DNA of 47,697 bases from an uncultured Mycobacterium sp. (GCA_964590745.1 CAZPZQ010000001.1:1-47697); one strand, 5' to 3'. Positions 4,876 to 42,310 are shown, counted from the first letter of the stretch. Numbers and translations: made by a program. The notes: generated from the sequence alone by a model not told the origin.

Positions 4876-4903
4876 GCTATCATAATATAAATAGCAATAA
4901 AGC
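4876..4903. promoter_or_regulatory. Tandem 9-bp operator-like motif, copy 1
   Basis: g-CTATCATAA-TATAAATAG-CAATAAAG-c in the P450/Rieske ferredoxin divergent intergenic region. Confidence 0.7.
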
Positions 4904-4970
4904 CCAATGGTTGTTGTCGCGTTCGCCGCGGGGCGACATGATTGTCTTAGCTGCTCGAGGGAGGCGGTCA

Positions 4971-5330
4971 ATGCCGATACGCCAGTTTGTCTGCGCACTC
5001 GACGAGTTGCCGCCGGGTTCGATGAAGCTGGTCGATGTCGGCAAGTTCGGCGTCGGTGTCTACAACGTGCGCGGCTCGTTGCATGCGATTGTCAACTACT
5101 GCTCTCATCAGGGCGCGCCGCTGTGTCTCGGCTCGGTCAACGGCACCACCGAGCCCGACCCGGAACAGCCGGATGGAGTACGCCTGGTGCGCGAAGGTCA
5201 GATCGTCCGATGCCCCTGGCACCAATGGGAGTTCGACATCACCACCGGGAAGAACGTCGCCGATCCGCAGCGCCGGGTGCGCACCTACGAAGTCGACGTC
5301 AGCGACGGAGAGGTCTACCTCACGGCATGA
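4971..5330 (+). CDS. Rieske [2Fe-2S] ferredoxin
   Basis: CSH...CPWH ligands, WEFDITTG; RBS GGAGG; ATGA coupling to next gene. Confidence 0.92.
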   Translation: MPIRQFVCALDELPPGSMKLVDVGKFGVGVYNVRGSLHAIVNYCSHQGAPLCLGSVNGTTEPDPEQPDGVRLVREGQIVRCPWHQWEFDITTGKNVADPQRRVRTYEVDVSDGEVYLTA

Positions 5331-6421
5331 GCAAACCAACTTCCGGCGGTCCAGTTATCGACGCCAACGTCCAACCGCATTTCCGCAATAACGCTGAAAT
5401 CCGGCACTACCTGCCGCCGGTGCACAAGCTCCGGGCGATACCGGACGTGGAGCAGCAGTGGTATCAGGCGCCGGGCGGTGACTACCGGCCGGATCTCTAT
5501 GGCGAGCACTACCCGGGCTCCGACCCGGAAACCGTCAGCCGGCACCTGTTCGGCGACTGGCACATCGACTACGCGATCCTCAACCCGTTGACCCGCGGTA
5601 ACATCGCCGACTATCTGCTCAACAGCCGGATTTGCGCCGCGGTCAACGACTGGCTGTTGGACCGGTGGCTGATACCGGATGCCACCAACCGGTTTCGTGG
5701 CACCATCCGGGTCAACCCCGAGGACCCCAAGGGTGCGGTCGCTGAAATCGAGCGGTTGGCTGGGCATCCGAAAATGGTCCAGGTCGGAGTGCCCATGCAG
5801 TCACGCGAACCGTACGGCAAGCCGATGTTCGAGCCGATCTGGGAGGCCGCGGAAGCCCACGGACTTCCGGTGGCGGTACACATCAACGGCGGCAATGGGA
5901 TTGACCACGCGCCCACCTTCGCCGGCCACGCTCACACCTACCCCGGATATGCGGCGTTCATGCCACTGAACTACTTCGTGCACTTGGCCACGCTGATCGT
6001 CGAGGGTGTTTTCGGGCGTCACCCCGGGCTGAAGGTCGTTTTCGCCGACGGTGGTTACGACATTCTCACGCCGCTGATGTGGCGGCTGGACACCTTCTGG
6101 CTATCGATGCGTGACCAGACTCCGTGGGTGGACCGGTATCCCAGTGAGTACCTGGCCGACCACGTCCGGTTCTGTTCGTCGTCGCTAGACGGGCCGACCG
6201 ACACCGGCCAGATTGCCCAGTGGATGGACTTCTCGAACAAGTCGGAACTGGTCATGTACGGTTCGAGCTATCCGCACTGGTCGACATCGCCACCGGGCGT
6301 AATGGCGGCGGGTCTGGACAGCCCGCAGCGGGATAAGTTCTTGTGGCGAAACGCCAGTAACTTGTATGGGCTCACCCAACCGACGGCAGCTCGCCCGATC
6401 GACGAAAGTAGCGTGTCATGA
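5327..6421 (+). CDS. Amidohydrolase_2-fold protein with degenerate metal site (AibH1-like partner subunit)
   Basis: IDANVQPH, VAVHING, FADGG, YGSSYPHW: family fold motifs with several ligands substituted. Confidence 0.85.
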   Translation: MSKPTSGGPVIDANVQPHFRNNAEIRHYLPPVHKLRAIPDVEQQWYQAPGGDYRPDLYGEHYPGSDPETVSRHLFGDWHIDYAILNPLTRGNIADYLLNSRICAAVNDWLLDRWLIPDATNRFRGTIRVNPEDPKGAVAEIERLAGHPKMVQVGVPMQSREPYGKPMFEPIWEAAEAHGLPVAVHINGGNGIDHAPTFAGHAHTYPGYAAFMPLNYFVHLATLIVEGVFGRHPGLKVVFADGGYDILTPLMWRLDTFWLSMRDQTPWVDRYPSEYLADHVRFCSSSLDGPTDTGQIAQWMDFSNKSELVMYGSSYPHWSTSPPGVMAAGLDSPQRDKFLWRNASNLYGLTQPTAARPIDESSVS

Positions 6422-7581
6422 CCGCTTCGGAACGGGCCGAGTCGCAGGTCCAAAGTGATGAGATCGCGGTGACCATCGTCGACACCGACGTGCACCCGAT
6501 GGTGGCGTCGCTGGATGTGTTGAAGTCTTACGCTCCGCCGGAATGGGTGGACAAGATCTTTCCGACCGGGCACGCGGTGACTCCGATACCACATTTCTAT
6601 GACACCCCGAATTCCTTTAAGACGTTTTCGCTTCGAACCGACGCCGTCCCGCCCGGCGGTGGATTCCCGGGAACCGACCCCGATTTCGCGGCCAAGCAAC
6701 TATTGCTTGACGCCGGAGTCAGCATCGCGCTGCTGGAACCGCTGTGCGACGCCCAGCTGCCGGAAGCCGAACACGTGCTGAAATCGACCTACAACGACTG
6801 GCTCGCGGACTTGTGGCTGGACAAGCACAACAGCCACGGTCGCTGGCGTGGGACCGTCAGTGTCAGTGCCCAGGCGCCTGAGCTGGCGGCGCGTGAAATC
6901 GAGCGCTGGGCGGGCCATCCGTACATGGCTGAGGTGCTGATGACACCGCAGACCCGTGGAATACCTTTCGGTAACCCACATTTCGATCCACTCTATGCCG
7001 CCGCGGCTCGCAACGGACTTCCGGTGGCCACGCATCTGATGGGCCAGACCCCGTTTGAGTTGGTCCCCATTTATCCGGTGGGGAATCCGGCGCACTGGCA
7101 TGATTTCTTCGCATCGTGGCCGCTACTGTTCGTATCGCACTTGATGAGCCTGGTATTCGACGGTGCATTCGACCGCCATCCAGACCTGCGGGTGGTGTTC
7201 GTCGAAGGCGGCTTTACCTGGGTGGCGCCGGTGATGTGGCGGATGGACCGAATCTGGGAGGCTCGCCGGGGCGATCTCCCACAGGTGCGACGGCGTCCGT
7301 CCGAATATGTGCGCGAGCACGTCCGGTTCACCACGCAGCCACTCGAGGAAATCAACGTCGCGGTGTATCGCGAGTACCTGGAGATGGCCGACCTGGGCAA
7401 CATCCTGATGTTCTCCACCGACTACCCGCACTGGAGCTACGACTCGCCCAGTTATGCGATCAACCGGTTCCCGCGTGACCAGCGGGAGCGGATCATGTAC
7501 GGCAACGCAACGGCCTTGTACCGGCTGCCGTCGAGGGTGAAGGCGCTGCCGGGGGAACGGTCAGCCGCCGATGTCGCTTGA
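6418..7581 (+). CDS. Amidohydrolase_2-fold protein, probable dinuclear oxygenase catalytic subunit (AibH2-like)
   Basis: VDTDVH, VATHL, FVEGG, FSTDYPHW ligands intact; ATGA-coupled to its paralog. Confidence 0.85.
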   Translation: MTASERAESQVQSDEIAVTIVDTDVHPMVASLDVLKSYAPPEWVDKIFPTGHAVTPIPHFYDTPNSFKTFSLRTDAVPPGGGFPGTDPDFAAKQLLLDAGVSIALLEPLCDAQLPEAEHVLKSTYNDWLADLWLDKHNSHGRWRGTVSVSAQAPELAAREIERWAGHPYMAEVLMTPQTRGIPFGNPHFDPLYAAAARNGLPVATHLMGQTPFELVPIYPVGNPAHWHDFFASWPLLFVSHLMSLVFDGAFDRHPDLRVVFVEGGFTWVAPVMWRMDRIWEARRGDLPQVRRRPSEYVREHVRFTTQPLEEINVAVYREYLEMADLGNILMFSTDYPHWSYDSPSYAINRFPRDQRERIMYGNATALYRLPSRVKALPGERSAADVA

Positions 7582-12104: not shown

Positions 12105-13334
12105 TTAGAGGATCGCGCCGCTGTCTTTGGCCGCCGCGATGGCATCCCAATCTAGACCCAGCTCCAGCAGGATCTCTTCGGTATGTTGGCCGTGTTCGGG
12201 GGCACGGGCCGGAGGCGGTGGTGTCTCGTTGAACTGCACAGGAGCAGCGACCATTTGGTATTCGTCACCGGCGTCGTCAACATTAGTGACGAGATAGCCG
12301 TTGGGTCGGTTCTGCGGATCGTGCAGAACCTCGCGTGGTGTGGCCAGCGGTGCCCACACGCCCGGCTCGTCGGCCAGTGCGGTGCGCCAGTGCTGCAGGT
12401 CGTATTCGGCGAATCTAGCGCCGATGAGTGCAGTGGCCTCGGCGGCGTTGGCCGACAGATTCGAAGCCGGTACGAAGCGTTCGTCGGTCGCGAGTTCGGG
12501 TAGGCCCAACCGCTGACAGAAGCCGGCCCAATATCGGTCCGGTTGTAAAAAGACCAACTGTATCCAGCGGCCATCCTTGGTCTTGTATCGGTTGACCAGC
12601 GGATTGATGGCCAATCCCGGTGGGGCGCCGGGGATGCCGTCGATATCGAAGAAATCCGCTACCGAAATCGACGGTGCGATCGCCCACATCGCCTGAGCCA
12701 GCAGCGACGAGTCCACGATCGCGGTCTCACCGGTGCGTTGCCGGTGGAACAGCGCCGCGCACACCCCACCGGCCAGGGTGGCCCCGGCTTGCAGGTCGCC
12801 GAAGGCCGGGCCCTGCACCGCGGGATATTCCGTTCCGAACGGTGTCAGCGTGTAAGCCACCCCGCCGCGAGCCAGGTAGGTGGCAGCGTCGAATCCACCG
12901 CGGTTGCGGTCCGGTCCACGTACCCCTAATCCGGTGCCGCGCGCGATGATGATGTCGGGGTTGTCCGCTCGGATGTCTGCAACCGTCAGCCGTGCCCGTT
13001 CCAGTGCGTCTGGCCGCCAGTTGGTAAGCAGCACATCGGCATCCGACAACAACTTTCCGAACAGTTTGCGTCCGTCATCGTTTTTGAGATCCAGCGCGAT
13101 GCTGCGCTTGCCACGGTTGCCCAGTTCGAGCATGAAGTCGGCATCGACCCGCGCGGCTTCCCGGGTGAACCCGCCCACCACCAGAGCGCGCCCCGGGTCG
13201 CCGCCGGCGATGCTCTCCACTTTGATCACATCGGCGCCCCAGTCCGCCAGGGCAACACCGGCGGACGGAACGTAGGTCCACGAAGCGAGTTCGATCACTC
13301 GAACGCCACTGAGCATGCGGGACACTGAGGACAT
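12105..13334 (-). CDS. Family III (CaiB/BaiF) CoA transferase
   Basis: [36 protein letters not shown] catalytic Asp, APEHGQHT. Confidence 0.93.
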
Positions 13335-13372
13335 CGACCACCTTCTCGTGCGCTGGCGTCGTCGCGGCCGGC

Positions 13373-13412
13373 TTGACGTTCTGTGCTACTTTACTATCTT
13401 TATCATGTTAGC
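13373..13412 (+). promoter_or_regulatory. SigA-like promoter overlapped by 9-bp operator-like motif, copy 2
   Basis: TTGACG(13373)-N16-TATCTT; minus strand 13412-13385 reads g-CTAACATGA-TAAAGATAG-TAAAGTAG-c. Confidence 0.7.
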
Positions 13413-13438
13413 TGTACCGGCCTGACCGAGGAGCGCCG

Positions 13439-14302
13439 ATGGGCAGAGTCACGGGCAAGGTGGCATTGATCAGCGGTGCGGCGCGTGGCCAGGGCCGTTC
13501 CCATGCGCGCATGCTGGCCGCCGAGGGTGCCGACATCATCGCGGTCGACTTGTGTCAAGACATCGCGACCAACGACTACCCGTTGGCTCGACCGGAGGAT
13601 CTCGACGAAACCGCGCGGCTGGTGGAAAAGGAGGGATGCAGCGCGTTCACTGCCATCGCCGACGTCAGAGACCGTCCGGCCTTATCGAAGGCGATCGACG
13701 AAGGCGTAGCCCAGTTCGGCCACTTGGATGTGGTGGTGGCGAACGCTGGGATCGCGCCGCTGACGGCCGGCGGCCCCATCCAAGCCTTCGCTGACGCCAT
13801 CGACGTCGACCTGATCGGCGTGCTGAACTTGGTGCACGCCAGCCTCAAACATTTGCAGACCGGTGCGTCGATCGTCGTGACCGGTTCGCTGGCAGCGTTT
13901 ATGGCCGCAACGAACACCTCGGGCATCGACGCCGGTCCGGGCGGGGCAGGCTATGGATTCGCCAAACAGGTGGCTGCGCACTACGTCAACGATCTGGCGC
14001 TGCAATTGGCGCCCAGCAATATTCGAGTCAATGCGATCCACCCGACGAACTGCAACACCGACATGCTGCACAGTCCACCGATGTACCGCGCCTTTCGGCC
14101 GGACCTGGCGAACCCCACCCGCGAGGACGCGGAACTGTCTTTCCCCGCGCTACAGGCGATGCCGATTCCCTACATCGAACCCGAGGACGTCAGCGAAGTG
14201 GTGCTGTTCTTGGCGTCAGACGCCTCGCGGTACGTGACGGGCCAGCAGATCCGCGTCGACGCCGGTGGATTCCTGCGCGCCAAGCCCTGGTCGGGCCCGT
14301 AG
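13439..14302 (+). CDS. Mycofactocin-coupled SDR (carveol dehydrogenase-like)
   Basis: GAARGQGRSHA, ADIIAVDLC plus insertion loop, NAG, YGFAK, IHPTNCNTDM. Confidence 0.9.
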   Translation: MGRVTGKVALISGAARGQGRSHARMLAAEGADIIAVDLCQDIATNDYPLARPEDLDETARLVEKEGCSAFTAIADVRDRPALSKAIDEGVAQFGHLDVVVANAGIAPLTAGGPIQAFADAIDVDLIGVLNLVHASLKHLQTGASIVVTGSLAAFMAATNTSGIDAGPGGAGYGFAKQVAAHYVNDLALQLAPSNIRVNAIHPTNCNTDMLHSPPMYRAFRPDLANPTREDAELSFPALQAMPIPYIEPEDVSEVVLFLASDASRYVTGQQIRVDAGGFLRAKPWSGP

Positions 14303-14387: not shown

Positions 14388-14389
14388 GG

Positions 14390-26149: not shown

Positions 26150-26170
26150 CGCGGCTCGCCAAGTCGACGA

Positions 26171-27087: not shown

Positions 27088-27090
27088 CGG

Positions 27091-29487: not shown

Positions 29488-29493
29488 TCGAGG

Positions 29494-30732: not shown

Positions 30733-30777
30733 GGTCACCTCGATCCCGTCGGCCCACCGGCCGTGACGCCCAGATAA

Positions 30778-30818
30778 TTGACGTGCAATGTCTAAAATAG
30801 TAAAAATAGACCGGTATC
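30778..30818. promoter_or_regulatory. Tandem 9-bp operator-like motif, copy 5, next to TTGACG
   Basis: TTGACG at 30778; t-CTAAAATAG-TAAAAATAG-a at 30791-30810. Confidence 0.7.
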
Positions 30819-30860
30819 GTCGAGCCGCGAGCGGTTGGGTGCGTCGAAAACGGAGAGCCT

Positions 30861-31976: not shown

Positions 31977-33553
31977 TGCGCCAACGGCAGGCGCTAGGGC
32001 CGGCGGATTTCGGTGTGGACCGGTTCAGCGTCTCAGCAGTGCTGGATCGGCGTGCCAAGCGGCTGCCCGACCGGGTGATGATGTCGATCGCCGGCATTCC
32101 GGTGACCTTTGAACAGATGGCCCAACGCTCACGCGCAGCAGCGAACGTGCTGCTCGACCTGGGCCTGAAGCGCGGCGACTGCGTTGCGTTGTTCACCGCG
32201 ACGTGTCCGGAATGGGTCTACTTCTGGCTGGGTGCGGCGCGCGTCGGCCTGGTGAGTGCCGCCATCAACGCCGCGAATAAAGGAGACTTTCTGCAGCACC
32301 CGCTGGAACTGTCCCGGGCCAAGGCGGTCATTACCGACACCGATCGGTGCGGGCGTGTTCGCGCTGTCGCCGACCGGGTGCCGGCGGTGACCGACATTGT
32401 GGCGTGCGATGATTCACTGCGCCGGGCCCTGACCGACGACGGTCGGCCGCTGGTGGATACCCTCGGTGAAACCGGTGATGCCGGGACAATATTTTTCACC
32501 TCGGGCACCACCGGACCAGCCAAAGCGGTGGCCACGAGCTGGCATTACCTGTTCACTGCAGCGGCCACCGTGGCCGCGGCCTGGGAATTCGGCCCGGGTG
32601 AGACGGTGTGGACAGCGATGCCGCTGTTTCACCTCAGCGCGGCACCCACCGTGCTGGCGCCGATGCTGGTCGGCGGAACCACCGTGCTGGCGGACGGGTT
32701 CCACCCTGACCGGGTGTGGGATGACGTGCGTAGCTGCGGCGCGATCGGATTCGCCGGGGCCGGCGCCATGGTGTCAATGCTGCAGAAGTTGCCGGCCGAT
32801 CCGCGTGACGAAGCGCTTCCGCTGCGGTTCATCTCCGCAGCGCCGATCGCCGCTGGTGACCATCGCAACATCGAAAGGCGATACGGCTGCCGCGTTGTCA
32901 CCATGTACGGCCTGACCGAGGCGTTTCCCCTCACCGTCAACGGTGTCGCCGACGACGGTGCGCCCGGCACATCTGGGCGGCCCACCGCGAGCTTCGACGT
33001 GCGCATCGTCGATTCGAACGGCGACCCGCTGCCTACCGGGCAGGTTGGCGAGATCGCCTGTCGGCCTCGGTATCCGCATGTTATGAGCGAGGGCTACCTG
33101 CGCTACGGCGGCGCTATCGTCAAGCACCCGAGCTGGTTCCGGACCGGAGATTTGGGCAAGGTGGACGAGGCGCAGAATCTGACCTACGTCGACCGGGTCA
33201 AAGATGCGGTGCGCCGGCGCGGCGAAAACATCTCCTCGATCGAAGTGGAGACAGTGGTGCTGAGCCATCCGGCGGTGGCCGAGGCCGCTGTGGTCGCGGT
33301 GCCCAGCGAACTGGGTGAAGATGACATCCTGCTGGCCTTGACACTGCGGCCGGCCGCAGCGCTGGACTATGTTGAGCTGCTTGACTTCTGTGCTGAACGG
33401 ATGCCGTACTTCTGCGTGCCGCGCTACGTCGAAATCGTCGACGTGATCCCGAGAAACGGCATCGGGCGGATGCGCAAGGATCTGCTGCGCGCCCGGGGTG
33501 TCGGCGGTGACGCCTGGGACCGGGAACAGCACGGATACCGCCTCAATCGATAG
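31976..33553 (+). CDS. Acyl-CoA ligase (CaiC-like)
   Basis: FTSGTTGPAK, YGLTE, FRTGDLG, DRVKDAVRRRGENISSIEVE. Confidence 0.92.
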   Translation: MRQRQALGPADFGVDRFSVSAVLDRRAKRLPDRVMMSIAGIPVTFEQMAQRSRAAANVLLDLGLKRGDCVALFTATCPEWVYFWLGAARVGLVSAAINAANKGDFLQHPLELSRAKAVITDTDRCGRVRAVADRVPAVTDIVACDDSLRRALTDDGRPLVDTLGETGDAGTIFFTSGTTGPAKAVATSWHYLFTAAATVAAAWEFGPGETVWTAMPLFHLSAAPTVLAPMLVGGTTVLADGFHPDRVWDDVRSCGAIGFAGAGAMVSMLQKLPADPRDEALPLRFISAAPIAAGDHRNIERRYGCRVVTMYGLTEAFPLTVNGVADDGAPGTSGRPTASFDVRIVDSNGDPLPTGQVGEIACRPRYPHVMSEGYLRYGGAIVKHPSWFRTGDLGKVDEAQNLTYVDRVKDAVRRRGENISSIEVETVVLSHPAVAEAAVVAVPSELGEDDILLALTLRPAAALDYVELLDFCAERMPYFCVPRYVEIVDVIPRNGIGRMRKDLLRARGVGGDAWDREQHGYRLNR

Positions 33554-33570
33554 AGTCTGGGAGAAGCGAG

Positions 33571-33963
33571 ATGAGCATGACCTATCAGCAGGAGCACCTG
33601 CTCAGCGGCGCGGTGGGCCGGGACGCCATCCTGAACCTCACGGCGCGGCACAATCGGTGCTATTCATCAGGTGACCGAGACGGTTGGATCGCGACGTTTA
33701 AGCACTCCGGCGCCCAATTCACCCGCGGCGGCGAGACCTTCACCGATTTACGGGACGCATTCGACGGCGGGGGACAGCGGCTGGTCACCGTCGACCACGA
33801 CATCTGGGTGGACGGCATCGACGCAACCCAGCACTGCGTCGCGTTGCTGTTTGTCGCCGGCCCCGATGCCGTCCGGATGCAAGCCACCGGCACCTATCGG
33901 GATCAGCTGGTCTACGAACGGGGCAACTGGTACTTCGCTTCCCGTGATTTGCAATGGGATTAG
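33571..33963 (+). CDS. SnoaL/NTF2-like protein
   Basis: RDAILNLTARH..GD..GW..TF...GTYRDQL...W.FASR pattern. Confidence 0.8.
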   Translation: MSMTYQQEHLLSGAVGRDAILNLTARHNRCYSSGDRDGWIATFKHSGAQFTRGGETFTDLRDAFDGGGQRLVTVDHDIWVDGIDATQHCVALLFVAGPDAVRMQATGTYRDQLVYERGNWYFASRDLQWD

Positions 33964-33979
33964 TCGCAAGCCGAGTGTG

Positions 33980-34498
33980 ATGGACTACCAGCTGGCATTC
34001 GGCAGTTACGACGACGCGCTACGCATGGTCGGGGTGACCACTGAGCCGCGAACCGCATCAGCTGTGGTGAGCGCTGCGCGGATCCAGTTGTTCGCGGCAA
34101 TGGTGCGCGACGGTAATCCGGCGTATTGGGACGTCGAGTTTGCCCGGCGGGTCTGGGGTGGTCTGCTTGCACCGCCCGCACTGCTGATGGGGTGGTTAAT
34201 CCCGCCGCCCTGGCAGCCTGCGGGTGAATCGCCGGTGGCGTCGCTGGCGCTACGGGTGCCGTTACCGGGCACCAGTTTCATTAACGCGGCCAACGAGGCC
34301 GAGTTTGTGTTGCCCGTCATTGAGGGCGACCGACTCACCGTCGTTGAAGAGGTGGTGTCGGTGTCGCCGGAAAAACGAACCCGGCTCGGCGTCGGGCACT
34401 TTGTCGAGACACTCGACACCTTCAGCCGCCAAGACGGTGCGGTGGTGGCCCGCAACCGCAACACATTGTTTCGCTTCATGCCCGGAGCGGCGTCATGA
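33980..34498 (+). CDS. MaoC-like hotdog dehydratase, partner subunit
   Basis: IQLFAAMVRDGNPAYWD..A...GGLLAPP, PVIEGD, KRTRLGVG. Confidence 0.85.
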   Translation: MDYQLAFGSYDDALRMVGVTTEPRTASAVVSAARIQLFAAMVRDGNPAYWDVEFARRVWGGLLAPPALLMGWLIPPPWQPAGESPVASLALRVPLPGTSFINAANEAEFVLPVIEGDRLTVVEEVVSVSPEKRTRLGVGHFVETLDTFSRQDGAVVARNRNTLFRFMPGAAS

Positions 34499-34926
34499 TG
34501 CCGGCGTGGGACGAGCTCAGCCCTCCGGTCGAGCTGCCGCAGGTGGTCGACGAGATCGACTACCAGCGAGTCGTGATGAACTGCGCCGCCACCTGGGACT
34601 ACTTTCCCGGGCACTTCGACCCCGGGTATGCCGAAACACACGGCCACCGCACCATCTTCGTCAACACCATGCACCTGGCCGGATTCGCCGACCGGATCGC
34701 GACCGACTGGGCCGGTCCGGGCAGCAGGGTGGTGCGCCGGAAGATGACCCTGGTTGGTTCCATCTACGCCGGCGACACCATGGTGGGCCGCGGGCGCGTC
34801 GTCGCCAAGCGCTCTGACACCAGCGCCGATCCGGCACGCCATTTGCTGGACCTGCACATCGAGGTGACCAACCAGCATGGTGAGCTGTGCTGTCCGGTCG
34901 AGCTGATGCTGGAGGTACCGGATTAA
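34495..34926 (+). CDS. MaoC-like hotdog (de)hydratase, catalytic subunit
   Basis: ATWDYFPGHFD (D-x4-H), IFVNTM, IYAGD; ATGA-coupled to partner. Confidence 0.88.
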   Translation: MMPAWDELSPPVELPQVVDEIDYQRVVMNCAATWDYFPGHFDPGYAETHGHRTIFVNTMHLAGFADRIATDWAGPGSRVVRRKMTLVGSIYAGDTMVGRGRVVAKRSDTSADPARHLLDLHIEVTNQHGELCCPVELMLEVPD

Positions 34927-34931
34927 CCGAG

Positions 34932-36587
34932 ATGACTGCTGATGCAGGCAGAATCGGCCCGGCGTTATCGCGGTACAGTTCGACCGTGGACGAGTTCGAC
35001 TATGTCGTTGCCGGCGGAGGGTCGGCGGGTTGTGTGGTGGCGAGTCGACTGAGTGAGGACTCGTCGGTGACGGTGTGCCTGCTCGAGGCCGGCGGTGAGG
35101 GCCGAGATCCGTTGATCCGCGCGCCGCTTGGCTTCGTCGTGGCGATGCCGCGGGGCATCAACAGCTGGCATTACCAGACGGTGCCCCAGACCGGCTTCAA
35201 CGGCCGGCGAGGGTTTCAACCGCGCGGCAAGGCGCTCGGAGGATCCAGCGTCATCAACGCGATGATCTATGCGCACGGTCATCCCTCAGACTTCGACACC
35301 TGGGAGTCGTTGGGGAATCCGGGCTGGGGTTTTGACGATGTGCTGCCGTACTTCAAGAAAACGGAGACGAATGCCATCCACCGCGACTCGCCCTACCACG
35401 GAACGGGCGGTCCATTGCATGTGACGAACCTGCGGAACCCGAGCCCGCTCAACGACGTCTTCCTGCGGGCCTGCGAGTCGCAAGGCATCCCGTACAACCA
35501 CGACTACAACGGCGAACAGCACTTCGGTTGCTACCACGTGCAAGTCACCCAGAAAGATGGCGAACGACACAGCGTTGCCGCGGCATTCATCCATCCCAAT
35601 CTCGACCGCCCCAACCTGGACGTGCGCACCAAAGCCCACATCACCAGGATCGTGTTCGACGGGCGCCGAGCAACCGGCGTTGCCTACCAGCACCGCGGGC
35701 AGTTGCGCACCGTGCGAGCCCGGCGCGAGGTGATCGTGTCAGCCGGTGCGTTCGGCACCCCGCAGATCCTGATGGCATCTGGCCTCGGTCCCGGCTCACA
35801 CCTACAACAACTCGGTATCACCCCGGTGCTCGACAGCCCCGGCATCGGCCAGAACCTGCAGGATCACATCTCCGCGCTGTTGATCTACCGGGCCCGGATC
35901 AGCGATGACACGGTCGGCATCTCCCCGATTGGTGTCGCTCGGATAGCGCAGGCGATGTGGCAATGGCGCCGGCATCGAAAAGGCCTGATCACCAGTTGCG
36001 CCGCCGAGTCCGGTGCCTACTACCGAACCAGTCCGGACGTCGAGGTGCCGGACATGGAGATGGAGCTGATCGTCGGCATCGGCAAAGACCACGGCCGCAA
36101 ACCTCCGCTTGGCCACGGCTACTCGGCCCACCTGTTGCTGGCCCGGCCCAAAAGTCTCGGCGAGGTACGGCTGGCCAGCCCGGACACCCGGATCGCGCCA
36201 TTGATCGACCCGAAGTACTTCAGTCACCCCTACGACATGGAGACGCTGATCAAAGGAACCCAGATCGCTCTTGATGTCATGAACGACAGCGCTTTTGACC
36301 GCTACCGGCGCGAGATGATCATCCACTATGAGCGCGACGACCCACAGCAGATCGAGGACACGCTGCGCGCGCACGCCGACACCGAATACCATCCGTGCGG
36401 AACGTGCAAGATGGGCCCGGACAGCGATCCAATGGCGGTCGTCGACCCGAAGCTCAAGGTGCACGGAATCGAGGGTCTTCGGATCGCCGACGCATCGGTG
36501 ATGCCGACCATACCGAGCAACAACATCCACGCACCGGTGCTGATGATCGCAGAGAAGTGTGCCGACCTGATCAAGCAATCGGCTTGA
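34932..36587 (+). CDS. GMC oxidoreductase (choline/alcohol dehydrogenase-like)
   Basis: DYVVAGGGSAG, PRGKALGGSSVINAM, GQNLQDH, YHPCGTCKMG, LRIADASVMP; start may be GTG 34986. Confidence 0.94.
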   Translation: MTADAGRIGPALSRYSSTVDEFDYVVAGGGSAGCVVASRLSEDSSVTVCLLEAGGEGRDPLIRAPLGFVVAMPRGINSWHYQTVPQTGFNGRRGFQPRGKALGGSSVINAMIYAHGHPSDFDTWESLGNPGWGFDDVLPYFKKTETNAIHRDSPYHGTGGPLHVTNLRNPSPLNDVFLRACESQGIPYNHDYNGEQHFGCYHVQVTQKDGERHSVAAAFIHPNLDRPNLDVRTKAHITRIVFDGRRATGVAYQHRGQLRTVRARREVIVSAGAFGTPQILMASGLGPGSHLQQLGITPVLDSPGIGQNLQDHISALLIYRARISDDTVGISPIGVARIAQAMWQWRRHRKGLITSCAAESGAYYRTSPDVEVPDMEMELIVGIGKDHGRKPPLGHGYSAHLLLARPKSLGEVRLASPDTRIAPLIDPKYFSHPYDMETLIKGTQIALDVMNDSAFDRYRREMIIHYERDDPQQIEDTLRAHADTEYHPCGTCKMGPDSDPMAVVDPKLKVHGIEGLRIADASVMPTIPSNNIHAPVLMIAEKCADLIKQSA

Positions 36588-37370: not shown

Positions 37371-38846
37371 TTAGGGCGTGGGCAGCGGCGGCATCGCATC
37401 CTTGCTGACCACCGCCTGCAGTTCGACATACTCGGCCAGGCCCTCGGCGCCGAACTCGCGTCCGATACCAGACTGCTTGAACCCGCCGAACGGGGTGCTG
37501 ATATCGAGGTTGTACATGTTGACGCCGTAGGTGCCGGCGCGCACCGCGGCGGCAACCTCCATGCCGTGCGCGGCGTCTTCGGTCCACACCGAGCCGGCCA
37601 GGCCATAGTCACTGTCGTTGGCGATCCGGACCGCATCGGTTTCATCGGTGTATTTCAGTACCGTCAGCACCGGGCCGAAGATCTCCTCGCGCGCGATCTG
37701 CATCTGGTTGCTGGCGTCGGCGAACAGCGTGGGCCGCACATACCAGCCGCGGTCCGCCGGAGCGTCGTCGCCGCCGACGACAATCCTGGCGCCCTCGTCA
37801 ATACCGGATCGGATGTAACCCTGAACCCGGTGCTGTTGGCGCTGTGCGACCAGCGGGCCGATGTCGGTGGCTTCATCGGTGGGGTCGCCGATCTGCAAGC
37901 CGGCCATCATGTCGGCGAGTGCATCGACCACCTCGTCGTAGCGTCGCTCACTGACCAGAATCCTGGTCTGTGCCACGCAGGCCTGCCCGTTGTTCATCAG
38001 TCCAGCCGTTTTCAAGGCGCCGACGGTGTGCTCGACGTCGGCATCGTCGAGGATGATCGCAGCTGACTTGCCGCCCAACTCGAGGCTTACTCGTTTGAGT
38101 TGTTCGCCGCAGATGGCCGCGATGCGCCGACCGGCGGCCGATGACCCGGTGAACGCAATCTTGTCCACTCCCGGGTGACGGACCAAGTGTTCGCCGACCT
38201 CCCGGCCACCCGGCAGCACCGACACCACCCCTTCCGGCAGGTCGATCTCCGCCAGCATTTCGGCTAGCCACAGGGCGTCCAACGGTGTTTCGGGCGCGGG
38301 CTTGACCACGACGGTGCAGCCGGCGATCAGCGCCGGGATCAGTTTAGGCATGATGACGAATTGCGGTACATTCCACGGCACGATCGCGCCGACCACCCCG
38401 ACCGGCGCCCGGCGCACCTGGACCTCCCCGTAGAGCCCCTGACGCCGTTCGATCCACCGGAACTCCCGCGCGGTCGCCAAAGCCAGATGCATCATGGCGG
38501 CTGCGCCGGCCGCTTGACCCTGCCTGGAAAACCGTCGCGGTGAGCCCATTTCGGCGGTGATCAGGTCAGCCATCTCCTCGAGATGGGCGGTGTACACGGC
38601 GGCCAGCTTCTCCACCTTTTCCATCCGGTCGGCCGGGCTGAGCTGCGGCCACGGGCCATGGTCGAATGCTGTCCGAGCCGCCGCCACCGCCCGGTCGACG
38701 TCCTCGGCGGTGGCCTCGGGGACCTCGCCGATCTGCTGTTCGGTGTGTGGTGAGATCACGGCAAGTCGACGTCCGGTCGCCGGCCGCTGCCAGCGTCCAC
38801 CGATGAAGAGTTGATCGTAGGTCCGGTGATCGAGGTGTTCGGCCAT
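37371..38846 (-). CDS. Aldehyde dehydrogenase
   Basis: IVPWNVP, KPAPETP, FTGS, LELGGKS, NGQAC, EEIFGPV, FGGFKQSG. Confidence 0.96.
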   Translation of the reverse strand: MAEHLDHRTYDQLFIGGRWQRPATGRRLAVISPHTEQQIGEVPEATAEDVDRAVAAARTAFDHGPWPQLSPADRMEKVEKLAAVYTAHLEEMADLITAEMGSPRRFSRQGQAAGAAAMMHLALATAREFRWIERRQGLYGEVQVRRAPVGVVGAIVPWNVPQFVIMPKLIPALIAGCTVVVKPAPETPLDALWLAEMLAEIDLPEGVVSVLPGGREVGEHLVRHPGVDKIAFTGSSAAGRRIAAICGEQLKRVSLELGGKSAAIILDDADVEHTVGALKTAGLMNNGQACVAQTRILVSERRYDEVVDALADMMAGLQIGDPTDEATDIGPLVAQRQQHRVQGYIRSGIDEGARIVVGGDDAPADRGWYVRPTLFADASNQMQIAREEIFGPVLTVLKYTDETDAVRIANDSDYGLAGSVWTEDAAHGMEVAAAVRAGTYGVNMYNLDISTPFGGFKQSGIGREFGAEGLAEYVELQAVVSKDAMPPLPTP

Positions 38847-38880
38847 GCGGCACCGCCTTGCGCAGGGTGCAGATAACTTC

Positions 38881-38910
38881 GCTATTGACGCTAACATAGC
38901 AAAGAATGAC
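38881..38910. promoter_or_regulatory. Tandem 9-bp operator-like motif, copy 6
   Basis: GCTATTGACG-CTAACATAG-CAAAGAATG; contains GCTAT-N10-ATAGC and shares TTGACGCTAAC with copy 7. Confidence 0.65.
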
Positions 38911-38961
38911 AGCTCTGGGCGTGCGCCGCCGGTGATCGCCGGTGATGAGGAGAGGCCGACG

Positions 38962-39744
38962 TTGGGCGACGAACTTCTGGTCACCGCGGACGGCGCAGTG
39001 CGCACCGTGACGCTGAATCGCCCCCAGGCCAAGAACGTCATTGACGCACCATTGCACGCCCAGCTGCTCGATGTCTGGCACAGCCTGGACCGCGATGTCG
39101 ACGCGCGCTGCGTGATTCTCACCGGCGCCGGGGAGACATTCAGCGGGGGCGGAGATTTCGGGTTTCTCAAAGCCCAGCATCAGTCGATTCAGCTGCGGTA
39201 TGCGGTTTCCCAACAGGCCGGCGCCATCCTGGGCGCGATGATCAACTTCCGGCTGCCGGTGGTGGCTGCGATCAATGGGCCGGCGGTTGGGCTGGGCGCG
39301 TCGCTGGCGCTGTGTTGCGACCTGGTGTTGATGTCTGACCGCAGCTATCTGTGCGATCCGCACGTCTCGATCGGGCTGACCGCTGCCGACGGCGGTGCGC
39401 TGCTGTGGCCGTACATGATGAGCATGATCCGCGCCAAGGAATACATCTACACCGGCACGCGCATCCCCGCGGCAGACGCGGTCGACCTCGGCCTGGCAAA
39501 CCGGGTGGTGCCGGCGGACACACTGATGGACGAGGCCCGGGCGCTGGCGGCCAAGCTCGCGGCCCAGCCGGCCCGGGCGCTGCAGACCACTAAACGGGCG
39601 TTCTCCAAGCACATCGCCCAGGCGGCGATCGCCATCGTCGACTACGGCTTGGCCGCCGAAGCCCTGGAACTGGGCGCCGACGAACACATCGACAAAGTCC
39701 GCGAATTCCTTGGCCCAGACAAATACGACGCGATCGGCCGGTGA
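38962..39744 (+). CDS. Crotonase/enoyl-CoA hydratase superfamily protein (His/Asp type)
   Basis: TLNRP..KN, FSGGGD, PVVAAINGPAVGLG, DPHVSIGLTAADGG; RBS GAGGAG before TTG. Confidence 0.9.
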   Translation: MGDELLVTADGAVRTVTLNRPQAKNVIDAPLHAQLLDVWHSLDRDVDARCVILTGAGETFSGGGDFGFLKAQHQSIQLRYAVSQQAGAILGAMINFRLPVVAAINGPAVGLGASLALCCDLVLMSDRSYLCDPHVSIGLTAADGGALLWPYMMSMIRAKEYIYTGTRIPAADAVDLGLANRVVPADTLMDEARALAAKLAAQPARALQTTKRAFSKHIAQAAIAIVDYGLAAEALELGADEHIDKVREFLGPDKYDAIGR

Positions 39745-39745
39745 G

Positions 39746-41101
39746 GTGCCAGCGGATTGGCGTCGCTACCCGTTCCGGCTGGTGCCCGACCGGCTGGAGT
39801 TCCCGGCCGCCGAGGGCGCCCATCCCGACCAGGAGTCCGATACCTGGTTTCTGGCCGGCCAACTCACCACCGCGGCCGGCGATCGGTCGTTTGCCTTTTT
39901 GACCATTGTCAACAAGAACCGGCCCGGCGGGTCGATGGTCGCCGATTTTTATACGCTGGCGCTGTTCGAGCTGGACACCGGCGACTACGGCAGCTACACC
40001 GACTACGACATGCCGCCAGCCAATCGCCACCGTGCTGAGCCGAAACTGTCCGCCGCCGCAGGGCATCTCGACATCCGCTACCGCAGCAGTGCCGGCATAG
40101 CGGTGTGGACCGCCTGCCGCGACGGCGACGGACGTCTGCTGCCGTACACCTACCGCACCGATCTGGTCGGCTGCGATTCCGCGGACCGGGCAATGCGGCT
40201 GGAACTCGATGTGGCGCCGACGCGCGCGCCGGTACCGCTGGGCGCGTCGACCCACGACGGCCGGATTGCCTGTTTCGGACAAGACGACACTTACTCGTAT
40301 TTTCAGAGCGGGATGGCGATGACCGGGACGCTGCGCTGGGGCGACATCCATGAGCAGGTAGCCGGCGCCGCCGGGCACGTCGACCGGCAATGGTTTCCCA
40401 AATACGCCGGCGGGGGCGGAACCGGGGGTGATCCGCGGGCTCGCTCACACGAGTGGTGCACCATCAACCTGAACAACGGCGTCGACTTAAGCGTCTGGCG
40501 CCAGTTCGACCGCACCAGCGGCAATGCACTGCGCCCATTCTCCGGAGTGACCGTCAGTTATCCGGGTCCGACCGCACCGCCCGAGTTCACCGACGACGTG
40601 ACGGTTCAGGTGCACAGTTATGTCCGATGGCCGGACTCGGTGCGTCCGCTGGTCCCGCCGCTCGCCCCGGTCCGCTACCTGCCGGATCGACACCGGATTG
40701 CCTCGGCCGCATTAGAACTGGACGTTACCGGCGAGCCGATGGTTGCCGCGCCGGCGCATGCCCTGCCGATCGAGTACATGGAGGGGCCGTACCGCTACCG
40801 CGGGACCCTGCGCGGCGAGCCGGTGCAGGGTTTCGGGTTCTACGAACGCTCGCTGGCGCTCTACCGAGACTGGGAGTTGATCGACGTATTGGACGTCGCA
40901 GTAGCCAGCCTCCGGCCCGGCGTCGAGCGGTTGGCGGCATCGGTGCACCGGATTCGGTCATTGTTGACGGCCGGCGATCGGCGCGCGGCGCTCAATGCGC
41001 TGCGGACCGAGGTGCGGCCAACCGTCGACACCGGGTCGGTAGCCACCGTGACCGAGGTGCTTGACGACCTTATCAATGCCGTACTGCGCGATCTGGGGTG
41101 A
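39746..41101 (+). CDS. Lipocalin-like double beta-barrel protein (AttH/CrtC-like)
   Basis: FPAAEGAHPD..DTWF..G, TYSY, G.L.W...V.G..GHVDRQW, HEW..INL, Y.EGP....G...G.GFYE pattern. Confidence 0.72.
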   Translation: MPADWRRYPFRLVPDRLEFPAAEGAHPDQESDTWFLAGQLTTAAGDRSFAFLTIVNKNRPGGSMVADFYTLALFELDTGDYGSYTDYDMPPANRHRAEPKLSAAAGHLDIRYRSSAGIAVWTACRDGDGRLLPYTYRTDLVGCDSADRAMRLELDVAPTRAPVPLGASTHDGRIACFGQDDTYSYFQSGMAMTGTLRWGDIHEQVAGAAGHVDRQWFPKYAGGGGTGGDPRARSHEWCTINLNNGVDLSVWRQFDRTSGNALRPFSGVTVSYPGPTAPPEFTDDVTVQVHSYVRWPDSVRPLVPPLAPVRYLPDRHRIASAALELDVTGEPMVAAPAHALPIEYMEGPYRYRGTLRGEPVQGFGFYERSLALYRDWELIDVLDVAVASLRPGVERLAASVHRIRSLLTAGDRRAALNALRTEVRPTVDTGSVATVTEVLDDLINAVLRDLG

Positions 41102-42236
41102 GCCGTCGCAGTGCCTCGGTCCAGGCGATGTGGCGATGCTGCAGGCCGGGTTCGTTGCGACCGAACAACAGTTGAGCGCGGGCTCCGGATTCCAGATTGG
41201 CCTGCAGCGTCTCGACGAGGCGGTAATCTTCGTCGCGGACCGTCGCGTGCGCATAGTCAAATACGGCCTGGGCGCCGGCCGCCACCGATTCGTCGGAGAC
41301 ATCGAGCGGCGTGGAATTCTGGTGCACGGTGATCGAGCGATTCGGTCGGTCCGCCGGGTAGATTCGGAACAGCTCACCGTTGGCGATGGTCACCGACAGC
41401 ACGATGTTGGGGAACAGCGCGTAGATCACCACCAGGTACTTGAACGGGTCCCATTCGTCTTCCGGAATATCGGCTAGCTCCAGAATCCCGTTGAGCGGGA
41501 AGATCAACCGGTGATGTGGCCCGAATGAGTCGAAGACGGTGCAGTTGCTGCGGGCGATCGTCGCAAAGGTCTGCCGGTGCACAGTGGCGAAGTGGTAGTT
41601 CTCCGCGAATGTATCGACTGCCAGCTTCCAGTTGATCGCGGTGTCGAGCACCTTCTCGCCCAGCGGAGACCAGTGGCCGATACCCCACGAGTCGAGCTCG
41701 CCGGCCAGGGGGCCCAAGTGTGCGGCGATGTCCAGCTTGCCAGCGGGATCGAGTGACACCCAGAGGAATCCGGCGAACTCGGCGGCCGGCAACTCGGTCA
41801 GACCGACCGATTTGACGTGCACACCTGGAAACCCCTCGCGACCGGGGACGGCCACCAAGCGCCCGGTGTTGTCGTACGTCCAGGCGTGATATGGACAGGT
41901 GAATCGTTTTGCGGTGCCACACCCGGTCACCACTTGGGCTTGCCGGTGCAGGCAGACGTTGTCGAACGCCTTGACCATCCCGCCGGCGGTCCGGGTCAGC
42001 AGTATCGATCGCCCCATCACGGTCTTGGTGACATAGCTGTTCGGCTGTGGCAGTTCGGATACGTAACCCACCAGCTGCGGGCTGGCTGCCAGCATGGTGC
42101 GGTCGCGCTCGTGTCGCGCGGTTGAGGTATAGGCGTCGGTGTCGACGGTGTACTCACTCGGGGCCAGGTCGGTGGTTTTATCCCGCGCCAGCTTCACCGC
42201 ACGTCGGGTCAGGTCGACGAGTTGGTCGCGATCCAT
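41073..42236 (-). CDS. Rieske oxygenase alpha subunit (SRPBCC domain)
   Basis: NVCLHRQ..CPYHAW, NWKL..D.FAENYHFATVH, RDED. Confidence 0.92.
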   Translation of the reverse strand: MDRDQLVDLTRRAVKLARDKTTDLAPSEYTVDTDAYTSTARHERDRTMLAASPQLVGYVSELPQPNSYVTKTVMGRSILLTRTAGGMVKAFDNVCLHRQAQVVTGCGTAKRFTCPYHAWTYDNTGRLVAVPGREGFPGVHVKSVGLTELPAAEFAGFLWVSLDPAGKLDIAAHLGPLAGELDSWGIGHWSPLGEKVLDTAINWKLAVDTFAENYHFATVHRQTFATIARSNCTVFDSFGPHHRLIFPLNGILELADIPEDEWDPFKYLVVIYALFPNIVLSVTIANGELFRIYPADRPNRSITVHQNSTPLDVSDESVAAGAQAVFDYAHATVRDEDYRLVETLQANLESGARAQLLFGRNEPGLQHRHIAWTEALRRLTPDRAVRH

Positions 42237-42277
42237 GTCGTCAATTACAGCAGACTCGGACCGGCGAGATCCGCCAG

Positions 42278-42310
42278 TTGACGCTAACTTTATAAACTTT
42301 ATAATCACAA
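42278..42310 (+). promoter_or_regulatory. Near-consensus SigA promoter with 9-bp operator-like motif, copy 7
   Basis: TTGACG(42278)-N16-TATAAT(42300); g-CTAACTTTA-TAAACTTTA-TAATC fills the spacer. Confidence 0.72.

What the first reader, a model, noticed from the sequence alone, without database searches (positions are those of the whole stretch)
4876..42310. Tandem 9-bp AT-rich motif in seven divergent promoters: a putative new regulon operator
Copies at 4876, 13385 (minus), 24528, 27060, 30791, 38890 and 42283 align as 2-3 tandem 9-mers resembling CTAnnnTAG/TAAAnATAG. Examples: CTAACATGA-TAAAGATAG-TAAAGTAG versus CTAACATTG-TAAAAATAG-TAAACTAG. They stand out in GC-rich DNA, four sit beside a TTGACG hexamer, and several overlap -10 elements. 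One precedes the GntR/FadR gene, the likely cognate repressor (inference). The motif is unlike KstR (TnnAACnnGTTnnA), KstR2 or typical GT-N-AC GntR boxes.
Basis: partly seen in the sequence, partly recalled or inferred. Interest (0 to 1): 0.72.

Follow-up and report, generated by a model that had tools for sequence, protein, structure and literature searches.

The report
Non-canonical GntR operator in mycobacteria
A short DNA signal sits in all seven back-to-back promoter regions of a 41-kb cluster of oxidation genes and is conserved in related mycobacteria; it is likely the docking site of the cluster's own GntR-type repressor, which would switch on these genes for a still unidentified, probably fat- or steroid-like nutrient.

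Summary
The motif is real. All seven copies lie within 1 nt of the stated positions, each between divergent genes. It is an 18-bp pseudo-palindrome, CTAWNWTWR-YWAWNWTAG, built of two self-complementary 9-bp units, often with a third. Held-out copies beat 851-855 of 855 other AT-rich patches of the genome, and a window-trained matrix finds it in 80 of 80 related loci. In 120 Mycobacterium genomes a strict pattern occurs in the 62 that carry the neighbouring FadR-subfamily GntR orthologue and in 0 of 58 without it; the two target genes tested are missing there too, so this alone does not name the regulator. Better evidence: the protein lacks the two G-reading arginines of canonical FadR, and paralogue groups lacking them carry variants of the motif at their own genes (65 of 72, versus 4 of 49 with Arg/Lys; too few independent contrasts for a test). 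Five sites overlap sigma-70-type promoter matches, which implies repression. An invariant His3 pocket points to a metal-bound small effector rather than acyl-CoA. Binding is untested. I found no published description. Verdict: new variant of a known kind.

The parts
4877..4903 (.). Operator copy 1 (18-bp core 4877-4894 plus weak third unit), between a P450 (start 4838, minus) and the Rieske ferredoxin/amidohydrolase-pair operon (start 4971, plus); overlaps the -10 of a TTGTCT-17-CATAAT match
   Evidence: present upstream of 10 of 10 orthologous P450 genes
13386..13411 (-). Operator copy 2 (9+9+8 units), between a CoA-transferase (start 13334, minus) and a mycofactocin-coupled SDR (start 13439, plus); covers spacer and -10 of TTGACG-16-TATCTT
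   Evidence: few orthologues sampled (SDR 1 of 1 with site; CoA-transferase 0 of 2, where it lies inside an operon)
24529..24554 (+). Operator copy 3 (9+9+8 units, strongest), between the acyl-CoA dehydrogenase/ligase operon (start 24521, minus) and a luciferase-like oxidoreductase (start 24583, plus); covers the -10 of TTGACC-18-TACAAT on the minus strand
   Evidence: 84 of 84 orthologous upstream regions
27052..27087 (.). Operator copy 4 (core 27061-27078 with weaker flanking units), between the GntR gene (start 26992, minus) and a double CoA-transferase (plus): the likely autoregulatory site
   Evidence: 87 of 92 orthologous upstream regions
30792..30809 (+). Operator copy 5 (two units), between a CYP124/125/126-like P450 (minus) and a KshA-like Rieske oxygenase operon (start 30861, plus); covers the -10 of TTGACG-18-AAAAAT
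   Evidence: 79 of 79 orthologous upstream regions
38882..38908 (+). Operator copy 6 (three units, core 38891-38908), between an aldehyde dehydrogenase (start 38846, minus) and an enoyl-CoA hydratase (plus)
   Evidence: 14 of 14 orthologous upstream regions
42284..42310 (+). Operator copy 7 (three units), between a ring-hydroxylating Rieske oxygenase (start 42236, minus) and an amidohydrolase-fold gene (start 42394, plus); fills the spacer and -10 of TTGACG-16-TATAAT (11 of 12 consensus)
   Evidence: 5 of 7 orthologous upstream regions
26171..26992 (-). GntR/FadR-subfamily regulator, 273 aa (GntR winged helix plus FCD domain). Recognition region PRQEV...VSLVSLREA: Gln45, Glu46 and Leu56 stand where PdhR has Glu, Arg and Arg. 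His164, His217 and His239 are invariant. Likely cognate repressor
2464..7581 (.). Likely targets of copy 1: P450 and zinc alcohol dehydrogenase (minus); Rieske ferredoxin 4971-5330 and two amidohydrolase-fold genes resembling dinuclear oxygenases of the AibH1H2/ARO type (plus)
12105..14302 (.). Likely targets of copy 2: CoA-transferase III (minus) and SDR (plus)
18797..25500 (.). Likely targets of copy 3: four acyl-CoA dehydrogenase subunits and an acyl-CoA ligase (minus); luciferase-like oxidoreductase (plus)
25415..36587 (.). Likely targets of copies 4 and 5: SDR and GntR (minus), CoA-transferase (plus), P450 (minus); then Rieske oxygenase, ligase, SnoaL-like protein, two MaoC-type dehydratase subunits and a GMC oxidoreductase (plus)
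37371..43683 (.). Likely targets of copies 6 and 7: aldehyde dehydrogenase (minus), enoyl-CoA hydratase and an unassigned 451-aa protein (plus), Rieske oxygenase (minus), amidohydrolase-fold protein (plus)

Best explanation
The motif is a conserved 18-bp pseudo-palindrome of two self-complementary 9-bp units in seven divergent promoter regions, and it is likely the operator of the cluster's own FadR-subfamily GntR protein (26171-26992), which would repress these promoters until a pathway metabolite releases it. Shown: the sequence, its significance, its conservation, its overlap with promoter-consensus matches, and the protein's non-canonical recognition helix and His3 pocket. Inferred: (1) a dimer binds the 18-bp core; (2) a third unit creates a second core offset by about 9 bp, so a second dimer could load cooperatively; (3) because the site covers the spacer and -10, binding would block RNA polymerase on one or both strands, including the regulator's own promoter; (4) loss of the two G-reading arginines likely explains the missing GT/AC boxes; (5) the inducer is likely a small oxidised intermediate bound at a metal held by His164/217/239, not long-chain acyl-CoA; (6) the regulon likely oxidises a hydrophobic, lipid-, terpenoid- or steroid-like substrate and feeds it into CoA-dependent beta-oxidation. 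Rough odds: transcription-factor site 0.97; this GntR as the binder 0.88; repression 0.85.
For: Significance against AT-rich background. With a matrix refined on 47 distinct sites (the seven included), the seven sites plus one trans site are the top 8 genome hits, with a score gap from 15.2 to 11.2. Conserved upstream of orthologous genes, and absent upstream of three cluster genes used as controls (0 of 6, 0 of 24, 0 of 31). Strict pattern in 62 of 62 genomes with the orthologue, 0 of 58 without. In the relatives where the regulator is about 74% identical, gene order is rearranged and the motif appears at new promoter junctions; among the regulators I found, only the GntR is shared between those clusters and the window's. 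Paralogue groups without Arg/Lys at the Arg45-equivalent position carry group-specific variants beside their own genes: CAATCCTYA-YAAGGATAG-CAATRCTTG (33 of 33), CTATCTTGT-ACAAGWTAG-CAAGGAAAG (11 of 12), CYAACTTCG-CTAASATTC (7 of 12). Lys-bearing relatives (0 of 9) and 27 canonical-Arg relatives (0 of 27) do not. Arg35-G and Arg45-G contacts define canonical FadR recognition, and extra half-sites 7-12 nt away are common in the family (PMC4494728). Five of the eight sigma-70-type matches in 1-20000 and 24000-43000 overlap copies. Three-histidine metal sites are typical of FCD domains that sense carboxylates (PMC4746285).
Against: No binding, footprint or expression data; no RNA holder was listed (no evidence either way). 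The presence/absence result is confounded: the two target genes tested were also not found in the 58 motif-free genomes (no positive control in those calls). The residue-motif link rests on only 2 independent contrasts on well-supported branches (4 on all branches), and the sign test cannot reach significance. Counter-examples: one Arg-bearing protein has the motif (L153), an Arg-bearing subclade of 11 has its own 9-bp-periodic ACATAG repeats (3 of 11 pass the threshold), and one Arg-less protein has no site nearby. Palindromic symmetry was imposed on my matrix, so the matrix does not test it. G000 is about 80% complete, so another regulator could be missing from the assembly. The His3 site lacks the Asp found in NanR/LldR (Gly160) and the Arg found in the outgroup (Leu114), so the effector class is uncertain.
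Confidence: 0.76

Rival explanations
1. Same regulator and site, different mode: the GntR binds one dimer per 9-bp unit as E. coli NanR does on direct repeats, or acts as an effector-dependent activator at some promoters as CitO does.
For: Copy 7 and its orthologues look like three to five direct repeats. NanR is the best NCBIfam hit, far below its cut-off (79 versus 260 bits). At the trans site C56:8524 the motif lies just upstream of a TTGACA hexamer, a position compatible with activation. FCD-family activators exist (PMC4746285).
Against: The commonest strong sites have exactly two units with fixed outer CTA...TAG ends, which fits one dimer on a palindrome. Five window sites cover the -10. 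NanR needs a 32-residue N-terminal extension for cooperativity (PMC8012715); this protein has about 15 residues before the first winged-helix helix.
Confidence: 0.13
2. The site is a real operator but belongs to another regulator: the TetR-thioesterase fusion at 15670-16680, or a factor encoded elsewhere that travels with the cluster.
For: TetR proteins bind palindromes of this size and dominate mycobacterial lipid regulons (PMC4482099). The fusion lies inside the cluster in 5 of 5 close relatives. Co-occurrence cannot single out one gene.
Against: No motif upstream of the fusion (0 of 31); it has its own conserved palindrome GGTAAC-N3-RTTMYC. Seven motif-bearing relatives have no fusion, only a separate TetR homologue on another contig or far away, and homologues of that TetR occur in 9 of 11 motif-free genomes at 53-60% identity. 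The TetR at the edge of those clusters has no orthologue in G000 or in the 80 close loci. Motif variants follow GntR paralogues into different gene neighbourhoods.
Confidence: 0.08
3. The copies are only AT-rich promoter DNA (-35/-10 elements and spacers, or patches for an AT-binding nucleoid protein), similar by constraint rather than by a shared specific binder.
For: Five of seven overlap promoter-consensus matches, and every copy contains a TANNNT hexamer.
Against: 855 other AT-rich patches almost never score as high. The core's offset from the -35 differs between sites (6, 14, 21 nt on the plus strand). The pattern was not found in 58 genomes of the same genus. At the 24529 and 27061 sites the core is at least 90% conserved at most positions while flanking non-coding DNA is about 30-60% conserved.
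Confidence: 0.03

Closest known systems
FadR-subfamily GntR repressors with palindromic operators (E. coli FadR, PdhR, C. glutamicum LldR; consensus TKGT-N2/3-ACMA; PMC4494728)
   Same: GntR winged helix plus FCD domain; AT-rich palindromic site in divergent intergenic regions including the regulator's own; an extra half-site next to the palindrome.
   Different: No GT/AC boxes; 18-bp core with outer CTA...TAG; the Glu34, Arg35 and Arg45 equivalents are Gln, Glu and Leu; about 21-26% identity to the nearest solved structures. The helix signatures of this clade were not found in that paper's two supplementary files.
E. coli NanR on the (GGTATA)3 operator (PMC8012715)
   Same: FadR-subfamily protein on a non-canonical array of two or three closely spaced units; cooperative loading of several dimers is a plausible shared mechanism.
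   Different: Unit sequence unrelated; NanR repeats are direct whereas these units are self-complementary; no long N-terminal extension; NCBIfam NanR score 79 against a cut-off of 260.
Metal-binding FCD regulators TM0439, LldR, CitO (PMC4746285)
   Same: Three histidines at the matching positions, invariant in 45 of 45 aligned orthologues and in 82 of 82 members of the inner groups counted.
   Different: The Asp before the first His and the Arg of the R-x-x-L-E motif are Gly and Leu here, and two tryptophans are invariant (W187, W194), suggesting a more hydrophobic ligand (inference).
Mycobacterial lipid-catabolism regulons KstR, KstR2, Mce3R (TetR family) and Rv0494/FadR
   Same: One repressor coordinating many divergent operons of acyl-CoA dehydrogenases, ligases, P450s and Rieske oxygenases.
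   Different: KstR and KstR2 patterns (recalled) are absent from the window. Mce3R is a double TetR with 25-bp asymmetric sites (PMC11667970; I did not see the sequences). The protein matches the Rv0494 winged-helix chimera only weakly (E 1.5e-6); I did not read the Rv0494 operator papers.

Membership tests
GntR family, FadR subfamily (regulator) | N-terminal GntR winged helix (PF00392) | tested here: met
   E 3e-16, over cut-off; helices and wing in the model
GntR family, FadR subfamily (regulator) | All-helical C-terminal FCD domain (PF07729) | tested here: met
   E 2.4e-18; the Foldseek rows shown are GntR/FadR-type regulators, TM-score only about 0.4 over the whole chain
Canonical FadR-type operator recognition | Arg35- and Arg45-equivalent residues that contact G | tested here: not met
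   Glu46 and Leu56 align with the two Arg of PdhR; Leu56 invariant in 45 of 45; roles from PMC4494728 Table 1
Canonical FadR-type operator recognition | TKGT-N2/3-ACMA palindrome | tested here: not met
   0 of 7 regions
GntR operators in general | Site in the regulator's own upstream region and in co-localised divergent promoters | tested here: met
   87 of 92 orthologous upstream regions; 12 of 12 further orthologues
GntR operators in general | Direct, specific binding released or enhanced by an effector | not testable with these tools
   needs EMSA, footprint or genetics
NanR-type repeat operator | GGTATA direct repeats and a 32-residue N-terminal extension | tested here: not met
   unit sequence differs; first winged-helix helix starts at residue 16; score far below cut-off
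Metal-binding FCD sensors | Three conserved histidines in the effector pocket | tested here: met
   H164, H217, H239 invariant; metal binding itself not tested
Acyl-CoA-sensing FadR (E. coli FadR, Rv0494) | Close similarity to the acyl-CoA-binding domain and response to long-chain acyl-CoA | tested here: inconclusive
   16-19% identity to FadR structures, ranked below metal-type FCD proteins; ligand response untested
KstR / KstR2 regulons | TnnAACnnGTTnnA or AnCAAGnnCTTGnT operator (recalled patterns) | tested here: not met
   no match on the plus strand of the whole window, none on either strand at the seven sites

The most novel reading that the evidence does not exclude
This is the founding case of an undescribed actinobacterial GntR clade that has given up the family's arginine-guanine readout and reads self-complementary 9-bp AT-rich units, stacking dimers along arrays of them. 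Its mycobacterial member is the master switch of an uncharacterised oxidative pathway of about 35 genes (two P450s, two Rieske oxygenases, a predicted dinuclear oxygenase) that half of the sampled Mycobacterium species carry, with named orthologues in M. avium, M. intracellulare, M. kansasii, M. marinum and M. xenopi.
Probability: 0.5. Interest if true: 0.6.

Novelty: new variant of a known kind. Interest (0 to 1): 0.46.

Why it matters
It ties about 35 unassigned oxidation and beta-oxidation genes into one testable regulon that 62 of 120 sampled Mycobacterium genomes carry. The operator-repressor pair gives a direct reporter for finding the unknown substrate, which is the usual bottleneck for orphan mycobacterial P450s and Rieske oxygenases. 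It also supplies four related motif/recognition-helix pairs outside the GT/AC rule, useful for understanding how GntR specificity changes. It is not a new kind of mechanism: a local GntR repressor on a palindrome with an extra half-site is established biology.

Tried and rejected
Mce3R resemblance, recalled from memory: dropped; Mce3R is a double TetR with asymmetric 25-bp sites (PMC11667970 passages) and I could not see its sequences. TetR-thioesterase as binder: rejected. An mce/yrbE operon as a trans target: the site in G572 was seen in only 1 of 19 homologous upstream regions (one more scored 9.3), so not counted. Own-genome hits at C135, C177, C306, C428 and C149: C135 lies inside an ORF; these scored 11 or less with the refined matrix and were not tested for conservation. 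Breaking the cluster/regulator confound by finding target genes in regulator-free genomes: none found with two queries, so uninformative. Independent-contrast test of residue versus motif: too few pairs. The careful tree did not finish; the quick tree and a FastTree tree were used. The site B and site D conservation panels were contaminated by site A matches and were discarded in favour of gene-anchored counts. RNA evidence: no RNA holder listed. Literature: nine searches; five literal motif strings gave 0 papers; no match among the predicted M. smegmatis GntR operators of PMC2018728 Table 3. RegPrecise, subscription journals, figure logos (e.g. PMC4482099 Table 2) and bioRxiv supplements could not be seen, so prior description there is not excluded. 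Linking the cluster to M. marinum Mmar_3973/CYP269A1 through a similar CXXNXXC ferredoxin stayed unverified. No complex prediction was run.


Full report
Setting. The window is contig C1 of a 3.97-Mb, about 80% complete assembly. Its regulator's nearest named relatives are Mycobacterium proteins at 84-91% identity. From 2.4 to 43.7 kb it encodes an oxidative, CoA-dependent catabolic cluster: two P450s, two Rieske oxygenases, a Rieske ferredoxin with two amidohydrolase-fold genes, six acyl-CoA dehydrogenase subunits, two ligases, two CoA-transferases, dehydrogenases and hydratases, plus two regulators, a GntR/FCD protein (26171-26992, minus) and a TetR-thioesterase fusion (15670-16680, minus).

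Observation. Of the 18 AT-rich patches in the window, seven are these copies. Leaving each copy out of the matrix in turn, 0-7 positions in the whole genome score as well; among 855 other AT-rich patches 0, 0, 0, 4, 0, 1 and 1 do; among 3000 shuffles of each site's own 43-mer 0, 0, 0, 25, 0, 1 and 20 do. Self-similarity peaks at lag 9. A matrix refined on 47 distinct sites from the window and relatives gives CTAWNWTWR-YWAWNWTAG; symmetry was imposed in building it. It ranks the seven copies and one site on contig C56 as the top eight genome hits, with a gap from 15.2 to 11.2. Each 9-bp unit is self-complementary, so an array of n units holds n-1 overlapping palindromic cores. At 13386 and 24529 the third unit is 8 bp.

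Conservation. A matrix trained only on the window finds at least one site in 80 of 80 loci around orthologues of the regulator, and at least two in 79. Anchored on genes and with the window's own copy left out, sites score 8 or more upstream of 84 of 84 acyl-CoA dehydrogenase, 81 of 82 luciferase-like, 87 of 92 GntR, 84 of 91 double CoA-transferase, 70 of 70 and 10 of 10 P450, 79 of 79 and 5 of 7 Rieske, 14 of 14 aldehyde dehydrogenase and 1 of 1 SDR orthologues. Upstream of the single-domain CoA-transferase it was 0 of 2, where that gene lies inside an operon. Three control genes gave 0 of 6, 0 of 24 and 0 of 31; a fourth (Rv2525c-like) gave 2 of 5, where it shares a divergent gap with the Rieske gene. 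These loci are kin and partly overlap between sets, so the counts show conservation, not independent trials. In relatives where the regulator is about 74% identical the cluster is rearranged, and the motif appears at the new junctions and at promoters of genes that have no close counterpart in the window. The C56 site, upstream of an amidohydrolase-fold operon, is kept in both true orthologues found among 23 genomes (87-89% identity) and absent upstream of 16 more distant homologues.

Promoter geometry. The consensus scanner found 8 sigma-70-type matches in 1-20000 and 24000-43000, not many more than shuffles give (3 versus 3.2 and 5 versus 2.3), but five of them overlap copies, including the two best: TTGACG-16-TATAAT at 42278 and TTGACC-18-TACAAT at 24563 on the minus strand. 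In these five the motif covers the spacer and -10. Copies 27061 and 38891 contain TANNNT hexamers without a strong -35. That placement predicts repression by occlusion (inference from general promoter biology).

Which regulator. In 120 genomes drawn from the genus, a strict pattern (YTAWHWTWRYAAARATAG, one mismatch) occurs in exactly the 62 that carry the GntR orthologue and in none of the other 58; the reversed-pattern control gave at most two hits in a few genomes (an earlier 23-genome set gave 12 of 12 and 0 of 11). The Rieske oxygenase and CoA-transferase were also not found in those 58, so this shows that the motif is specific to the cluster, not which gene reads it. The TetR fusion is unlikely: it has no copy upstream, it has a different conserved palindrome at 15616 and 16715 (found in 33 of the 112 loci scanned, most of which do not reach that far), and it is absent as a fusion from seven motif-bearing relatives. 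A different TetR at the edge of those relatives' clusters has no orthologue in G000 (86 of 150 candidate ORFs from five loci were scanned).

The stronger argument comes from paralogues. I collected 122 homologues with flanking DNA from 401 phylum-level and 301 family-level genomes, taking a subset of the listed hits. Aligned to PdhR, the window protein has Gln45, Glu46 and Leu56 where PdhR has Glu, Arg and Arg. These correspond to FadR Glu34, Arg35 and Arg45, the arginines that contact G in the canonical GT/AC operator (PMC4494728, Table 1; the PdhR-to-FadR mapping is standard knowledge). Four groups lack a basic residue at the Arg45 position, and each has its own variant of the motif beside its gene: the orthologues (12 of 12), a Tyr-Pro group with CAATCCTYA-YAAGGATAG-CAATRCTTG (33 of 33), a Pro-Pro group with CTATCTTGT-ACAAGWTAG-CAAGGAAAG (11 of 12) and a Val-Gln group with CYAACTTCG-CTAASATTC (7 of 12). 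Lys-bearing relatives do not (0 of 9); six of them carry a different conserved AT-rich element, and the Val-Gln group nests among them in the quick tree. Overall 65 of 72 Arg/Lys-free versus 4 of 49 Arg/Lys-bearing proteins have a site (one locus with too little upstream DNA was dropped). Against over-reading: only 2 independent contrasts lie on well-supported branches and the sign test cannot be significant; one Arg-bearing protein has the motif; an Arg-bearing outer subclade has its own 9-bp-periodic ACATAG repeats; one Arg-free protein has none. The safe conclusion is that this motif family travels with this GntR clade through different gene neighbourhoods (neighbours mostly 25-55% identical to window genes). 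That the lost arginines cause the unusual motif is likely but not shown.

Effector and pathway. The model (mean pLDDT 79, pTM 0.60) has the winged helix and helical FCD domain, and the Foldseek rows shown are GntR/FadR-type regulators at 15-26% identity. His164, His217 and His239 are invariant, matching the three-histidine metal site of LldR, TM0439 and CitO (PMC4746285). The Asp preceding the first His in NanR and LldR is Gly here, and the Arg common in the outgroup is Leu. I infer a metal-assisted pocket for a small, fairly hydrophobic oxidised intermediate; acyl-CoA is not excluded. Targets point to a hydrophobic substrate: one P450 is closest to the CYP124/125/126 group, one Rieske enzyme to KshA (E 2e-35, distant), and the ferredoxin/amidohydrolase trio resembles amidohydrolase-related dinuclear oxygenases (PMC10811679). 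That last lead came from an earlier scan note (e1-5260053); I checked sequence similarity and gene layout, not the metal ligands. The substrate is not identified.

Comparison with what is known. It works like a local FadR-subfamily repressor on a palindrome with an extra half-site, an arrangement reported for 13 FadR groups (PMC4494728), with NanR as the model for cooperative multi-dimer loading (PMC8012715). It is a FadR-subfamily member by domains but fails the canonical tests for recognition residues and operator sequence. What I read: PMC4494728 parts 1-3 of 7, further passages and a search of its two supplementary files; passages only of PMC8012715, PMC11667970, PMC6237146, PMC2018728, PMC4746285, PMC4482099, PMC5541348 and PMC10811679; search listings for the rest. 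Nine searches found no description of this motif or regulator; RegPrecise, subscription papers and figure logos were out of reach. The scan's index showed no earlier finding on this regulator. Named orthologues occur in M. marinum (ACC42383.1), M. kansasii, M. avium, M. intracellulare, M. xenopi, M. hassiacum and some M. abscessus; no M. tuberculosis name appeared in these partial lists, and I did not test it directly.

Verdict. Observation confirmed; interpretation supported by comparative evidence, binding untested. New variant of a known kind. Interest 0.46: solid, widespread and directly testable, with an unusual recognition code, but an ordinary regulatory logic.

Noticed in passing
window 15613-15633 and 16715-16729: A second conserved palindrome (GTGGTAAC-GAC-ATTACCAC at the first place; GGTAAC-N3-RTTCTC type at the second) upstream of an amidohydrolase-fold gene and of the TetR-thioesterase fusion; found in 33 related loci. 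Likely the TetR fusion's own operator. A weaker look-alike lies at about 9583-9600.
   Followed up: partly
window 15670-16680 (minus): TetR fused to a hotdog thioesterase; full-length in 5 close relatives, but found as separate, distant TetR and thioesterase matches in most other sampled genomes.
   Followed up: partly
window 4971-7581 (plus): Rieske ferredoxin plus two amidohydrolase-fold genes, the layout of AibG/AibH1H2-type dinuclear oxygenases; best solved relatives 8SM7, 8SM6, 8SM8. The ferredoxin is hidden inside a longer spurious ORF in a plain ORF list.
   Followed up: partly
G000:C56:8515-8550 (L267): Eighth copy of the motif outside the window, upstream of an amidohydrolase-fold / deacylase-like / P450 operon; conserved in both true orthologues.
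   Followed up: yes
L256:4417 and L257:4506: A further likely trans site between a small 150-aa gene and a P450 in two relatives; the same 18-mer as in L256 recurs in G742.
   Followed up: partly
L107:13775-14052, L247, L249: A 63-aa CXXNXXC ferredoxin lies between the CoA-transferase and the P450 in three relatives; the window has only 6 bp at that junction (29488-29493). It resembles the description of M. marinum Fdx4 next to CYP269A1 (PMC6237146), unverified.
   Followed up: partly
L230, L232, L236, L237, L240, L242, L243, L244, L246: An Arg-retaining GntR subclade (wing RRGSRSG/RRGSRTG) has its own 9-bp-periodic ACATAG repeat motif near its genes: a separate candidate operator family.
   Followed up: no
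L090, L093, L154, L155, L156, L172: Lys-bearing paralogues have a conserved TTATTTYCATATGATTTG element just downstream of the regulator gene, next to a TTGAC hexamer: a candidate operator with different spacing.
   Followed up: no
window 8028-9559 (minus): Two proteins that look like Mce-associated membrane proteins (recalled resemblance; no Pfam or NCBIfam hit); the first begins with three copies of a 19-residue repeat.
   Followed up: no
window 39746-41101 (plus): A 451-aa protein with no Pfam or NCBIfam match, conserved at 59-67% in relatives' clusters next to the aldehyde dehydrogenase site.
   Followed up: no
window 16751-18484 (minus): A DUF222 gene inserted in the cluster, present in some relatives and not in others.
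   Followed up: no
window 45927-45954: An AT-rich intergenic patch beyond the Rv2525c-like gene, with a similar patch in two relatives, that does not match this motif.
   Followed up: no
G793:C30 and G766:C21: Two genomes carry two adjacent copies of the regulator (66-71% identity to the window's).
   Followed up: no
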